Source: a virus
Lineage: Duplodnaviria > Heunggongvirae > Uroviricota > Caudoviricetes
Reading direction: 5' to 3' (one strand)
IMG/VR virus record: IMGVR_UViG_3300028965_000035
DNA: 4,234 nt
Made by a program: the position numbers and the translations under genes. This document shows, piece after piece, positions 1,211 to 4,234 of the stretch. Position 1 is the first letter of the stretch. The number at the start of each line of letters is the position of its first letter. Under the pieces are notes generated by a model. It did not search any database. It had not been told where the DNA came from and worked only from the letters and a program-made list of their open reading frames with translations.

Positions 1211-1490
1211 GCGTCCTGTCTCCCCGGTCTTTCTGCTGGGCGAGAAAATCGCGGCACAGGCCTTTGGCTTTCAGCTCATTCAGCACAAAATCAATATCTT
1301 CATTCAGGTAGCTGAAAATATGCGGAATGTAGAGCTGATGCAGGCCGGAGAGTTCACGGTGAATCAAATCACCCCCAACAAACCGGGATACGGCGCTGGC
1401 GCGGTTGAGCTTATGGTAAGCCTCAATGCTGAGGTGTTCACGGGCGTCATGACGCGCTGAGACGGTCTGAGGGGTTTTTTTATTACGCAC
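1203..1490 (-). CDS. epsilon: Epsilon-like helper-prophage derepression protein, 95 aa if started at the GTG
   Basis: The track shows a 175-aa frame (1203-1730) whose upstream part overlaps kil in another frame. The only start with a ribosome-binding site is GTG at 1490-1488, preceded by GGAGGTG (complement of 1495-1501) with a 4-6 nt spacer. It lies 2 nt past the kil TAA stop (1485-1483). Product ends ...DRGDRTHV. Assignment is by position and size; the start codon is inferred. Confidence 0.55.
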
Positions 1491-1680
1491 GGGACACCTC
1501 CACCACCGGCAGACGGGCAGCAAGGGAGAGCACATAGTCACGGACAAGGGAACGGCGGGCACTGCGTTCATCACCGGCGACGGTGCGAAGCATGCAGATA
1601 CGGGGATGACGGTCTGCGCGACGGACAGCCGCAAACACAAAGACAAATTCAGGGTGTGAAGGGGTAAGGGTTGTAGCCAT
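1483..1680 (-). CDS. kil: Kil, 65 aa; an in-frame internal ATG at 1593-1591 would give a nested 36-aa product (eta-like)
   Basis: ATG at 1680-1678 preceded by AAGGAG (complement of 1689-1694) with 8-nt spacer. This is residue 147 of the 211-aa track ORF 1483-2118, whose upstream part covers the CI RNA/seqA leader and is therefore not coding. Product [65 protein letters not shown]. Confidence 0.6.
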
Positions 1681-1686
1681 AAGGCA

Positions 1687-1699
1687 GTCTCCTTCGAGT
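1687..1699 (-). promoter_or_regulatory. seqC-like target of the CI RNA loop, overlapping the kil ribosome-binding site
   Basis: + strand GTCTCCTTCGAGT (1687-1699) matches 12 of 13 positions of GTCGCCTTCGAGT at 1946-1958. Its transcript ACUCGAAGGAGAC is complementary to the loop AUUCUUCGAG in the 1746-1810 RNA (about 9 bp including one G-U). Confidence 0.55.
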
Positions 1700-1745
1700 A
1701 GCAAATAACTGCTATCGCCGGAGTTCTCACGCTCGATGGCGATAG

Positions 1746-1810
1746 CCCAGACGGGGGTGAGAATACCGGCCTCGAAGAATACCGGCCAGCCCGGAGGCTG
1801 CCCCGCCTGA
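1746..1810 (-). ncRNA. cI: CI-type immunity RNA (antisense regulator carrying seqB in a hairpin loop); ends approximate
   Basis: Minus-strand transcript folds into an outer stem (GGCGGGG 1807-1801 with CCCCGUC 1756-1750) enclosing two hairpins: CAGCC-UCCG-GGCUG, and a CCGG/CCGG stem with 10-nt loop AUUCUUCGAG. The complement of that loop, CTCGAAG (1771-1777), occurs only here in the window. Flanked by the direct repeat GAATACCGGCC (1761-1771, 1777-1787). Confidence 0.5.
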
Positions 1811-1919
1811 GCTACCATTGACTCAGTGGCATAACATGCGATTGCGAACAGGATCATACCTGCACGGCAAACCACACGCCACACCATAATCTGGCGCTCT
1901 GTGGCGTTGATTGCGACAC

Positions 1920-1941
1920 AAAAAAAGACGCATGGCGCGTC
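1920..1941 (-). terminator. Terminator-like hairpin plus U7 in the PLE leader, immediately downstream of seqA
   Basis: Minus-strand RNA GACGC-GCCAU-GCGUC (5-bp GC-rich stem, 1941-1927) followed directly by UUUUUUU (1926-1920). The stem is short, so this is more likely a weak or conditional terminator than a constitutive one. Confidence 0.4.
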
Positions 1942-1945
1942 ATAT

Positions 1946-1958
1946 GTCGCCTTCGAGT
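1946..1958 (-). promoter_or_regulatory. seqA-like target of the CI RNA loop in the 5' leader
   Basis: GTCGCCTTCGAGT, direct repeat of the seqC box, about 40-50 nt downstream of the predicted PLE start; complementary to the seqB loop (about 8 bp). Confidence 0.5.
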
Positions 1959-1996
1959 TACACGGGTTCTCACGCCCGGCTGCCGATTTTGCGGCA

Positions 1997-2034
1997 GCGG
2001 AAAAACTATATCCGCAAATGCCGGAAAAAGGCAA
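1997..2034 (-). promoter_or_regulatory. PLE-like constitutive sigma70 promoter of the leftward operon
   Basis: Minus strand -35 TTGCCT (complement of 2029-2034), 18-bp spacer, -10 TATAGT (complement of 2005-2010). Predicted start near 1997, between the vis stop and seqA. Confidence 0.5.
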
Positions 2035-2069
2035 GCCAGAAAAAGGGAGTTTTTGCAGAGCGGGCATCA

Positions 2070-2336
2070 TCATGCGTCGTACCCCCGTTTGCGTCCGGCA
2101 ATGCGCCCGGTCATCCATGCGGTGATTTCAGAGTGCAGCCAGGCCACATTTTTACCGCCAAGACTCACCTGCGGCGGAAATTCCCCCTTACGGATGAGTT
2201 CATAGATGGTCGAGCGTGACAGGCCGCACAGGTGCATCACTTCCGGCAGACGTAAAAAACGCTCCTGCGTGATGTCCGGCAGCGGCATCAGTGGCGTCAC
2301 TGGGGCGGGAGACGGGGAAGAAAAAACAGCTTGCAT
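2070..2336 (-). CDS. vis: Vis, AlpA/excisionase-family helix-turn-helix regulator, 88 aa
   Basis: Complete ORF. ATG at 2336-2334 preceded by GAGGT (complement of 2344-2348) with 7-nt spacer. Product contains [27 protein letters not shown], a typical AlpA/Xis-type HTH. First gene downstream of the PLL-like promoter. Confidence 0.8.
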
Positions 2337-4117: not shown

Positions 4118-4178
4118 GGGCTGCCGGTTAACCCCGGCCGTTGCGTATTACCGTGAAGGAGATCGGTGAGTAACATCG

Positions 4179-4234
4179 ATGGAGATCGGTTCGTGTCACT
4201 TTCACAGAACCGTTTTTAAATTACCTTCACTGAT
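4179..4234 (+). CDS. 5' end of the next late-operon ORF (psu position in P4), truncated by the window end; product not assignable from 18 codons
   Basis: Only frame open to the window end after delta. First ATG at 4179 (MEIGSCHFHRTVFKLPSL...). The nearest strong Shine-Dalgarno, AAGGAGA at 4156-4162, is 16 nt upstream, which is too far for a good site. Identity uncertain. Confidence 0.3.
   Translation, partial: MEIGSCHFHRTVFKLPSL

What the first reader, a model, noticed from the sequence alone, without database searches (positions are those of the whole stretch)
1920..1941. Terminator-like hairpin with U7 directly after seqA in the leader
About 55-75 nt downstream of the predicted PLE start, the minus-strand RNA forms GACGC-GCCAU-GCGUC followed by seven U. 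Its position right after the first CI target suggests pairing-dependent early termination or attenuation, separate from any terminator downstream of cI. The short stem argues for a conditional rather than constitutive terminator.
Basis: seen in the sequence. Interest (0 to 1): 0.5.

Follow-up and report, generated by a model that had tools for sequence, protein, structure and literature searches.

The report
Leaky terminator ending P4 seqA/IsrK RNA
The hairpin plus seven U's is real: it is the conserved factor-independent terminator that ends the short IsrK-like "seqA" RNA in the immunity leader of a P4-type satellite prophage, a known element, and whether the CI immunity RNA controls it is untested.

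Summary
The window is a P4-like satellite prophage, 97% identical to P4. On the minus strand, GACGC-GCCAU-GCGUC (1941-1927) plus U7 (1926-1920) lies 58-79 nt after the predicted PLE start. It begins 5-9 nt after the CI-complementary seqA.

It is the 3' hairpin and U-tail of Rfam isrK (RF01394, 70.7 bits, cut-off 50). Salmonella IsrK is a 77-nt RNA ending at this Rho-independent terminator, with partial read-through (PMC2330248, PMC4825925). P4 seqA has already been equated with IsrK (PMC3632133).

Of 69 distinct homologues, 61 keep a GC hairpin plus U-run at the same distance, and all five stem pairs show compensatory changes. Phage P1 has it too.

Best reading: a constitutive but leaky intrinsic terminator. 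It is distinct from the Rho-dependent, CI-regulated timm (window ~1524-1680).

CI dependence is not shown. In this element the hairpin is predicted to form with P about 0.8 without CI. However, a competing GGCG/CGCC pairing overlaps the CI target b1 and is much stronger in relatives. An antisense-controlled attenuator therefore remains a live minority hypothesis.

The parts
2005..2034 (-). PLE-type sigma-70 promoter (-35 TTGCCT 2034-2029, 18-nt spacer, -10 TATAGT 2010-2005); predicted +1 near 1998
   Evidence: Only promoter-like site in the window. A TTGnnn / TAnnnT pair at the same distance from the RNA start is visible in most of the 61 homologues.
1920..1998 (-). IsrK-like 'seqA RNA' unit: two 5' hairpins, linker with the b1 box, terminator hairpin and U7
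   Evidence: Rfam isrK RF01394 at 1998..1921, 70.7 bits (cut-off 50), full-length model 1-77. c4-a1b1 RF03163 at 2011..1959, 50.4 bits. MFE fold shows three hairpins.
1946..1978 (-). seqA: stretch complementary to seqB of the CI RNA (a1 box in the loop of hairpin 2; b1 box CUCGAAGG at 1957-1950)
   Evidence: Predicted duplex with CI of -33.6 to -39.5 kcal/mol, pairing RNA nt 21-49 contiguously and nt 52-53 weakly.
1927..1941 (-). Terminator hairpin GACGC-GCCAU-GCGUC
   Evidence: Near-invariant in 14 E. coli elements (the stem differs only in L008, at its outer pair) while seqA diverges. All 5 stem pairs show changes on both sides and 100% pairing in 49 homologues.
1920..1926 (-). U7 tract (read as Phe50-Phe51 and the first base of Cys52 in the eta frame)
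   Evidence: All seven T are invariant in the 14 E. coli sequences, including two third-codon positions where the synonymous C never appears.
1948..1951 (-). GGCG arm of a possible weak anti-terminator, pairing with CGCC at 1937-1934 (top of the terminator 5' arm plus loop); its first two G belong to the b1 box
   Evidence: MFE of the nascent RNA 1-67 contains it (P = 0.30), falling to 0.06 once the 3' arm is made. Family-wide analysis.
1913..1950 (-). Outer helix of read-through RNA: 1950-1943 (GCGACAUA) pairs with 1920-1913 (UGUGUCGC), enclosing the terminator hairpin and six U's
   Evidence: Folds at -18.2 kcal/mol, z = -3.3. Native arm pairs average -9.14 vs -7.31 kcal/mol for swapped partners, 0 of 5000 permutations as good.
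1735..1822 (-). CI immunity RNA (C4 family), reached only by read-through of the terminator
   Evidence: Rfam C4 RF01695, 74.3 bits (cut-off 45). No promoter-like site between 1920 and 1822.
1483..2073 (-). eta ORF (196 aa). Its AUG overlaps the vis stop as AUGA and it runs through seqA, the terminator and cI. Nested kil (65 aa) starts at 1680. timm lies within about 1524-1680.
   Evidence: Open frame. RefSeq annotates it as an 'Icd-like' CDS overlapping the vis stop in the source genome and 8 relatives. eta/kil biology as summarised in PMC10111431; timm coordinates from PMC3177188.

Best explanation
The hairpin plus U7 is a factor-independent (intrinsic) transcription terminator. It is the homologue of the Rho-independent terminator of the IsrK small RNA. 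Transcripts from the constitutive PLE promoter that stop here give a 75-79-nt 'seqA RNA' carrying the two target boxes for the CI immunity RNA. The stem is weak (5-6 bp, about -6 to -7 kcal/mol), so termination is partial. The polymerases that read through make the precursor of CI RNA and continue toward kil and the replication genes, where the known CI-controlled, Rho-dependent terminator timm acts. The element therefore works as a largely constitutive attenuator and small-RNA 3'-end maker at the head of the immunity leader. In late transcripts from PLL the region is inside the translated eta ORF, and a ribosome following the polymerase is expected to suppress the hairpin. What is shown here: the sequence anatomy, homology to IsrK, conservation with compensatory changes, and position relative to seqA, cI and timm. 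What is shown for the Salmonella homologue only: a 3' end at the last U and partial read-through. What is inferred: that termination occurs in this element, how efficient it is, and that eta translation suppresses it.
For: Rfam isrK matches full length at 70.7 bits with the hairpin and U-tail as its 3' module. IsrK is a 77-nt RNA with its 5' end mapped by primer extension and its length fitted to the last U of the terminator, confirmed by northern blot (PMC2330248). A subset of IsrK transcripts reads through into downstream genes (PMC4825925). P4 seqA and CI are described as the homologues of IsrK and C4 (PMC3632133; PMC10111431). The stem and all seven U's are near-invariant in 14 E. coli elements whose seqA boxes differ, and one has a compensatory C-G outer pair. 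In 69 distinct homologues from Enterobacterales, Aeromonas, Pseudomonas, Halomonadaceae, Vibrio and Xanthomonas, 61 have a G+C hairpin plus U-run starting 46-62 nt from the RNA start (52-62 in most), with many different stem sequences. All 5 stem pairs show both-side changes, with 100% pairing vs 35-40% in slid controls. In 18 of 18 diverse loci isrK is followed by a C4 RNA (15 of them within 8-40 nt), so read-through is needed to make C4. Curated phage P1 has the same hairpin plus U-run between b1 and c4. The hairpin is predicted to form with P about 0.8 in the free nascent RNA.
Against: There is no direct 3'-end or in vitro transcription data for P4 or this element. I could not read the primary P4 transcript-mapping papers, so I do not know whether a 3' end was seen or excluded there. 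The P4 literature available to me attributes immunity-specific termination to timm only. The hairpin is at the weak end of the family (-6.2 vs a median of -8.3 kcal/mol), so its efficiency could be low. The region is also coding (eta), so part of the conservation within E. coli could reflect protein constraint.
Confidence: 0.62

Rival explanations
1. Antisense-controlled attenuator. In the free nascent RNA the GGCG motif just after b1 pairs with the terminator's 5' arm and loop (an anti-terminator) and favours read-through. CI RNA pairing with seqA/b1 occupies that arm, the terminator forms, and transcription stops before cI. This would give CI negative feedback on its own synthesis and a second, Rho-independent arm of immunity.
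For: The b1 pairing with CI includes G48 and G49, the first half of the GGCG arm. The nascent RNA 1-67 has the competing hairpin in its MFE. Across 61 homologues, P(terminator stem) has a median of 0.72 free (22 below 0.5) and 0.95 with the seqA region blocked (2 below 0.5). 53 of 58 distinct homologues have a competing hairpin of -4 kcal/mol or better. In Pseudomonas- and Halomonas-type loci it is as stable as the terminator (GGCGC-ACAA-GCGCC, -9 to -10.7), and P1 has UGCGG-ACAA-CCGCA. There are covarying cases (AGAGAGC/GCUCUC, GGCGG/CCGCC, GGCC/GGCC), and native arms beat swapped partners in 5000 of 5000 permutations. The predicted cognate C4 duplex overlaps the arm in 32 of 32 loci. From my memory of Sabbattini et al. 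1995 (not re-read), seqC mutants remain immunity-sensitive through seqA, which needs a mechanism. IsrK supplied in trans raises downstream transcription 8-fold (PMC4825925), as titration of a C4-like termination factor would.
Against: In this window the competitor is weak: -5.4 vs -7.4 kcal/mol, P = 0.06 at equilibrium, and the terminator goes only from 0.81 to 0.97. The permutation effect is small (0.64 kcal/mol) because GGCG and CGCC are shared motifs. The duplex predictions ignore C4's own structure. The target ends only 5-9 nt before the stem, so CI would have well under about a second to bind unless the polymerase pauses (inference). Constitutive STnc1160 did not relieve IsrK toxicity in Salmonella (PMC4825925). 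The 8-fold effect is equally explained by relief of Rho polarity.
Confidence: 0.25
2. The hairpin is a structural or stability element rather than a terminator. It would be the apex of a longer helix (the outer helix) that keeps the untranslated leader compact, which would deny Rho a loading site or limit RNase E access before cI, or that sets up processing. The U-run would serve as a protein- or RNase-binding internal loop.
For: The outer helix enclosing the hairpin and U-run is conserved and covaries. The 339-nt leader is unusually structured (z = -6.8). Rfam labels isrK an 'Hfq binding RNA'.
Against: A G+C stem immediately followed by 5-8 U's in 61 of 69 homologues is the signature of intrinsic terminators and is not needed for a mere helix. 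The Salmonella homologue ends at that U-run (PMC2330248). IsrK acts independently of Hfq (PMC4825925). The outer helix can only form after the polymerase has passed, so it is compatible with termination and does not replace it.
Confidence: 0.08
3. Chance or a coding by-product: the palindrome and U-run merely encode Asp-Ala-Pro-Cys-Val-Phe-Phe of Eta and have no RNA-level role.
For: The site lies in the open eta frame. One terminator-like match in 4.2 kb is not unusual on its own.
Against: Compensatory stem changes occur together with amino-acid changes (GAC..GUC to CAC..GUG, Asp to His). The Phe codons are never UUC. The module is kept in loci without vis/eta and in P1, where the curated record has no CDS there. 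Stems of unrelated sequence occupy the same position across orders.
Confidence: 0.03

Closest known systems
IsrK small RNA of Salmonella Gifsy-1 (Rfam RF01394)
   Same: Own promoter. Two 5' hairpins (GCAAAAUC loop; CCGGG...CCCG). A linker, then a G+C hairpin plus U-run used as a Rho-independent terminator. About 77 nt long. Partial read-through into a C4-like RNA (STnc1160) and downstream genes. Full-length model match above the curated cut-off (PMC2330248; PMC4825925).
   Different: Here it heads the left operon of a P4-type satellite (cI, kil/eta, epsilon, alpha) rather than orf45-anrP. It is embedded in the translated eta ORF. No function of the short RNA has been shown in P4, whereas IsrK activates orf45/anrP translation in trans.
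P4 immunity system: CI RNA with seqA/seqB/seqC and the Rho-dependent terminator timm
   Same: This is that system. The window is 97% identical to P4, with CI (C4 model) at 1822-1735, seqA upstream and seqC over the kil ribosome-binding site.
   Different: The described CI-controlled terminator is timm, which is Rho-dependent, lies at P4 8365-8209 and is relieved by kil/eta translation (PMC3177188; PMC10111431). The hairpin is 240-400 nt upstream of timm (P4 8635-8614) and is not among the roughly 20 dyad symmetries annotated in the 1984 P4 record.
P1/P7 immI operon: c4 antisense RNA with a1/b1 and a2/b2 sites (Rfam RF01695, RF03163)
   Same: Same order: promoter, a1, b1, c4, a2, b2, icd-type gene. 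P1 also has a hairpin CCGCA...UGCGG plus UAUUUUU and an outer helix CGGACA/UGUCCG between b1 and c4.
   Different: P1 regulation is described as c4 blocking icd translation, which causes Rho-dependent polarity on ant (my recollection of Biere et al. 1992; not re-read). No terminator is annotated between b1 and c4 in the curated P1 record.
Antisense-RNA-mediated transcription attenuation of plasmids pT181, pIP501 and pAMbeta1 (from my own knowledge)
   Same: Works like the rival model: antisense binding to the nascent leader prevents an anti-terminator, so an intrinsic terminator forms.
   Different: Those antisense RNAs are transcribed from the opposite strand of the same leader and have a longer window between target and terminator. 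Here the antisense RNA is encoded downstream on the same strand, and control of this terminator is unproven. This is analogy only, not membership.
Small RNAs made by early termination in phage leaders, such as StxS from the Shiga-toxin phage PR' transcript (PMC7547250, title and abstract seen)
   Same: A constitutive promoter with a nearby terminator yields a short RNA as a by-product or regulator, and read-through gives the long transcript.
   Different: Read-through there is governed by the Q antiterminator protein. The RNAs are not related in sequence or structure.

Membership tests
Rfam isrK (RF01394) | Covariance-model score at or above the curated gathering score (50 bits), full-length match | tested here: met
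   70.7 bits, E = 2.7e-14, model positions 1-77 of 77 at 1998..1921 minus strand. P4 itself scores 60.8 bits.
Rfam isrK (RF01394) | Two 5' hairpins followed by a linker and a 3' G+C hairpin with a U-tail | tested here: met
   The MFE of the 79-nt RNA shows exactly these hairpins, and they align to the model's structure line.
Rfam isrK (RF01394) | Independent transcription start at the first hairpin | tested here: inconclusive
   A sigma-70-like -35/-10 pair ends 7 nt upstream of model position 1, and similar hexamers occur at the same distance in most homologues. This is consensus evidence only; no 5'-end data exist for this element.
Rfam isrK (RF01394) | A stable RNA of about 77 nt ending at the last U of the terminator | not testable with these tools
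   Shown for Salmonella IsrK by primer extension and northern blot (PMC2330248). No data for this element.
Intrinsic (Rho-independent) terminator | G+C-rich stem-loop immediately followed by a U-rich tract | tested here: met
   5-6 bp stem with 4 G-C pairs, -6.2 to -7.4 kcal/mol, then U7 with no spacer.
Intrinsic (Rho-independent) terminator | Structure, not sequence, conserved among homologues | tested here: met
   61 of 69 distinct homologues have the module. All 5 stem pairs show changes on both sides, 100% paired (that alignment was fitted to the model, whereas one search is independent of it).
Intrinsic (Rho-independent) terminator | RNA polymerase releases the transcript here without Rho | not testable with these tools
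   Requires in vitro transcription or term-seq.
Antisense-RNA-controlled attenuator (pT181/pIP501 type) | A mutually exclusive anti-terminator structure of comparable stability | tested here: inconclusive
   In the window it is -5.4 vs -7.4 kcal/mol, with P = 0.30 before and 0.06 after the 3' arm is made. In many relatives it is comparable or stronger.
Antisense-RNA-controlled attenuator (pT181/pIP501 type) | The antisense target overlaps the anti-terminator arm | tested here: met
   CI pairs with G48 and G49 of the GGCG arm. Overlap is predicted in 32 of 32 loci with a cognate C4 (a naive duplex prediction).
Antisense-RNA-controlled attenuator (pT181/pIP501 type) | Termination efficiency changes with the antisense RNA | not testable with these tools
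   Needs transcription assays with and without CI RNA.
P4 timm (Rho-dependent, CI-regulated terminator) | Location at P4 8365-8209, downstream of cI within kil | tested here: not met
   The hairpin maps to P4 8635-8614 (L002 2130-2150). timm corresponds to about window 1524-1680 (coordinates from PMC3177188).

The most novel reading that the evidence does not exclude
The hairpin is the output of an antisense-controlled attenuator shared by the whole C4/CI immunity family (P4-like satellites, P1, N15-like prophages, Gifsy-1 IsrK and many gammaproteobacterial elements). Binding of the immunity RNA to b1 and the adjoining GGCG-type arm would dissolve a small anti-terminator hairpin. The intrinsic terminator would then fire upstream of the immunity RNA's own gene. 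This would give autoregulation and a Rho-independent layer of immunity, and it would finally explain what the upstream a1/b1 (seqA) sites are for.
Probability: 0.25. Interest if true: 0.6.

Novelty: already known. Interest (0 to 1): 0.3.

Why it matters
As it stands the finding is an ordinary, already catalogued feature: the terminator of the IsrK/seqA RNA. Its value is as a pointer. The upstream target sites of the C4/CI immunity RNAs (a1/b1 in P1, seqA in P4) have, as far as I know, never had a clear mechanistic role. The described mechanism works through the downstream site and Rho. An intrinsic terminator sits a few nucleotides after that upstream site in almost every family member. A competing hairpin overlaps the antisense target. 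Together these make one simple experiment informative: PLE in vitro transcription with and without CI RNA. P4-like elements occur in about half of complete E. coli genomes (matches in 2654 of 5426). Even a modest regulatory role would therefore be widespread. It would also matter for engineered P4 vectors.

Tried and rejected
1. The primary P4 papers (Sabbattini 1995, PMC176756; Forti 1999, PMC94026) are not held. I therefore could not check whether 3' ends near P4 8614-8620 were ever mapped. Statements about them rest on citing papers or on my memory and are marked as such.

2. A literature search on timm/kil/eta/PLL returned only noise. Two searches failed on term length.

3. The consensus terminator scan alone does not establish significance: 7 sites vs 4.6 +/- 2.1 expected.

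4. Identity with timm was rejected on coordinates.

5. A role on the plus strand was rejected. There the sequence is A7 followed by the hairpin with no following U-run, and only short unsupported ORFs overlap it.

6. A pure coding constraint from Eta was rejected (see rival 3).

7. Co-folding the nascent leader with the 88-nt C4-model span gave pairing with flanking bases that are probably not in mature CI. I treated this as an artefact and used hard constraints and local duplexes instead.

8. My first automatic terminator picker chose lowest-energy hairpins and sometimes picked downstream structures. I replaced it with a position-anchored search.

These were filtered out with the covariance model.

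Full report
**What the window is.** The 4234-base window aligns over 98% of its length at 97% identity to satellite phage P4 (X51522 6686-10838). It is 100% identical over the leader to a prophage of E. coli KS-NP019.

On the minus strand the order is as follows:
- vis/orf88: 2336-2070
- a sigma-70-type promoter matching PLE: -35 at 2034-2029, -10 at 2010-2005
- an untranslated leader
- the CI immunity RNA: Rfam C4, 1822-1735, 74.3 bits
- kil, starting at 1680
- epsilon, orf151, orf106 and the start of alpha

The long eta ORF (196 aa) starts with an AUG that overlaps the vis stop codon (AUGA at 2073-2070). It runs through the whole leader, including the site of the finding. Citing literature describes eta as translated only from the upstream late promoter PLL and coupled to the alpA/vis homologue (PMC10111431).

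**Checking the observation.** The minus strand reads AUAU-GACGC-GCCAU-GCGUC-UUUUUUU-GUGUCGC.
- The stem is at 1941-1937 and 1931-1927, and the U7 run is at 1926-1920.
- It folds at -6.2 kcal/mol, or -7.4 with flanks (z = -3.2).
- It is one of the terminator-like sites found by the consensus scan.
- With +1 predicted at 1998, the hairpin occupies RNA nt 58-72 and the U-run nt 73-79.
- The stretch complementary to CI (seqA) covers nt 21-49, with weak pairs to nt 53. The hairpin therefore starts 5-9 nt after seqA.

On its own the motif is not statistically remarkable: 7 terminator-like sites against 4.6 +/- 2.1 in shuffles.

**What it is.** A search of all Rfam families gives a full-length match to isrK (RF01394) at 1998..1921: 70.7 bits, curated cut-off 50. 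The hairpin and U-run form the 3' module of the model. There is an overlapping match to c4-a1b1 (RF03163), the family of upstream target sites of C4 antisense RNAs.

IsrK of Salmonella Gifsy-1 was found through its predicted Rho-independent terminator. Its 5' end was mapped by primer extension. Its 77-nt length was fitted to the last U of the terminator and confirmed by northern blot (PMC2330248). A later study showed that a subset of transcripts reads through the IsrK terminator into downstream genes. [quoted passage not shown] Barquist et al. also state that IsrK and C4 correspond to seqA and CI of P4 (PMC3632133). The feature is therefore catalogued and its homologue is experimentally characterised.

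**Comparative evidence.**
- *E. coli elements.* In 14 elements the seqA boxes have diverged, consistent with different immunity specificities, but the stem and all seven U's are almost invariant. One element carries a compensatory outer pair, CACGC...GCGUG.
- *Coding argument.* The U-run is read as Phe-Phe in eta, yet the synonymous UUC is never used. The compensatory change alters Asp to His. This argues for an RNA-level constraint rather than a protein constraint.
- *Wider family.* I built a covariance model of the two 5' hairpins plus the terminator. I searched 120 loci retrieved by a pattern scan of one genome per species.
- *Result.* Of 69 distinct elements from Enterobacterales, Aeromonas, Pseudomonas, Halomonadaceae, Vibrio, Xanthomonas and others, 61 have a G+C hairpin directly followed by a U-run. 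Its 5' arm starts 46-62 nt from the RNA start (52-62 in most). Stems are as different as GACGC, AACACGC, AGCGCC, AAGCUCU, ACCACG and GCCGC.
- *Near misses.* At least two of the eight 'misses' have a five-U run that fell below my threshold.
- *Pair counts.* On the model-fitted alignment all five stem pairs show changes on both sides. Pairing is 100%, against 35-40% when partners are slid.
- *Promoter.* A promoter-like hexamer pair sits at a fixed distance upstream in most homologues.
- *Downstream C4.* In 18 of 18 diverse loci an isrK match above cut-off is followed by a C4 RNA. The gap is 8-40 nt in 15 loci and 62-63 nt in three. In this window it is 98 nt.
- *Phage P1.* The curated genome shows the same module between its annotated b1 site and c4: CCGCA-12 nt-UGCGG-UAUUUUU. 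That region has no CDS.

**How it most likely works.** A G+C stem immediately followed by a conserved U-run, a fixed short distance from a promoter, is the signature of an intrinsic terminator. The Salmonella homologue ends there.
- The stem here is at the weak end of the family: -6.2 against a median of -8.3 kcal/mol.
- cI lies downstream, and no other promoter-like site was found in the window. The terminator must therefore be leaky. This matches the 'two isoforms' of IsrK.
- I conclude that it is a largely constitutive, partial terminator. It makes a 75-79-nt seqA RNA and meters the flow of polymerase into cI, kil and the replication operon.
- The published CI-controlled terminator, timm, is Rho-dependent and lies at P4 8365-8209, about window 1524-1680 (PMC3177188). 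The hairpin maps to P4 8635-8614. They are different sites.
- For PLL transcripts the site is inside translated eta. Close ribosome-polymerase coupling is known to suppress intrinsic terminators (established knowledge). Suppression here is my inference.

**Is it CI-dependent?** This is the interpretive core of the finding, and I tested it as far as sequence allows.

For this element the answer leans to 'not much':
- The terminator stem has a predicted probability of 0.81-0.84 in the free nascent RNA and 0.97 when the seqA region is blocked as if bound by CI.
- The only competitor is a 4-bp GGCG (1951-1948) / CGCC (1937-1934) pairing worth -5.4 against -7.4 kcal/mol. It is in the MFE before the 3' arm is made (P = 0.30) but drops to 0.06 afterwards.
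- The CI target ends only 5-9 nt before the stem. That leaves well under a second for binding unless the polymerase pauses (inference).

Three observations keep the idea alive:
- The first two G's of the competing arm are part of the b1 box that pairs with CI.
- Across 61 homologues the terminator probability has a median of 0.72 free (22 below 0.5) and 0.95 blocked (2 below 0.5). 53 of 58 distinct homologues have a competing hairpin of -4 kcal/mol or better. In Pseudomonas- and Halomonas-type loci and in P1 it is a tetraloop hairpin as stable as the terminator: GGCGC-ACAA-GCGCC and UGCGG-ACAA-CCGCA.
- The arm covaries with the terminator's 5' arm in several lineages and beats swapped partners in every one of 5000 permutations. 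The effect is small, -7.12 against -6.48 kcal/mol. The predicted cognate C4 duplex overlaps the arm in 32 of 32 loci. That prediction ignores C4's own folding.

The Salmonella authors raised the same possibility for STnc1160 and the IsrK terminator. An indirect co-expression test did not support it (PMC4825925). I rate a CI-enhanced attenuator at about 0.25.

**A further conserved feature.** The 8 nt before the hairpin (1950-1943, GCGACAUA) pair with the last U and the 7 nt after the U-run (1920-1913, UGUGUCGC).
- Read-through RNA therefore folds into a longer stem with the terminator at its tip and six U's in an internal loop: -18.2 kcal/mol, z = -3.3.
- This outer helix covaries across the family. 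Examples are GGUAU/AUACC in Brenneria, GCGCCGAC/GUCGGUGC against GCGCCAAC/GUUGGUGC in two Aeromonas species, GCGCAU/AUGCGC, and CGGAC/GUCCG.
- Native arms average -9.14 kcal/mol against -7.31 for swapped partners, with 0 of 5000 permutations as good.
- It includes G.U pairs, so it acts at the RNA level on this strand.
- It can only form after the polymerase has passed, so it does not decide termination.
- It may keep the untranslated leader compact. The 339-nt leader folds with z = -6.8.
- It lies outside the Rfam isrK and c4-a1b1 models.

**Verdict.** The element is a known kind and effectively a known instance: the Rho-independent terminator of the IsrK/seqA RNA of a P4-type immunity leader. 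The proposed dependence on CI pairing is unproven and, for this element, predicted to be modest at best. Interest is low to moderate (0.3). The finding itself is ordinary. The comparative picture does give a concrete, cheap experiment on the unexplained role of the upstream a1/b1 (seqA) sites in C4/CI immunity.

**Limits.**
- No transcript data exist for this element in the tools available.
- The primary P4 mapping papers could not be read.
- Structure probabilities are equilibrium predictions, not co-transcriptional kinetics.
It samples the family rather than covering it.

Noticed in passing
window 1950-1943 with 1920-1913 (minus strand): An outer helix (GCGACAUA / UGUGUCGC) encloses the terminator hairpin and U-run in read-through RNA. 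It covaries across the family, including P1 (CGGACA/UGUCCG), and lies outside the Rfam isrK and c4-a1b1 models. Its function is unknown.
   Followed up: partly
L137 (phage P1 NC_005856) 48277-48322: P1 has a hairpin CCGCA...UGCGG plus UAUUUUU between the annotated b1 site and c4. A competing UGCGG-ACAA-CCGCA hairpin overlaps b1. No terminator is annotated there in the curated record.
   Followed up: partly
window 1483-2073 (minus); L003 5998-6588 and relatives: RefSeq annotates the whole leader plus cI plus kil as one 'host cell division inhibitor Icd-like protein' CDS. This corresponds to eta. The CI and IsrK-like RNAs are not annotated in these records. In loci without vis the annotated start differs, which suggests uncertain N-termini.
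   Followed up: partly
window 1660-1998 (minus): The 339-nt PLE leader is exceptionally structured: MFE -158.7 kcal/mol against -120.7 +/- 5.6 in shuffles, z = -6.8. It includes a long hairpin in the 97-nt spacer between the terminator and CI. P4 has 9 extra bases in that spacer relative to this element.
   Followed up: no
window 4139-4234: The alignment to P4 stops at about 4141. The last 96 bases are 99% identical to Escherichia phages PhiR12_1, _2 and _4 (annotated as hypothetical proteins) and not to P4. This suggests a mosaic junction just after delta.
   Followed up: no
L003 1333-3018 (source genome NZ_AP024123, outside the window): An AIPR-family (abortive-infection type) gene sits between psu and the integrase. 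This is the position known as the P4 defence hotspot.
   Followed up: no
L008 1-241 and 416-505 (E. coli Ecol_AZ161): An IsrK-like leader with the compensatory CACGC...GCGUG terminator lies directly downstream of a P2-family major capsid gene instead of vis. This is an unusual context for the module.
   Followed up: no
L072 663-752 and 7396-7466 (Acerihabitans sp.): One contig carries two a1/b1 elements. The first has the terminator. The second has the two 5' hairpins but no hairpin plus U-run. A few other homologues (L052, L044, L034) also lack it.
   Followed up: no
window 1475-1481 (plus strand): A T7 run lies on the plus strand, antisense to the end of kil/eta and the start of epsilon. It is not preceded by a convincing hairpin, and no role is evident.
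   Followed up: no
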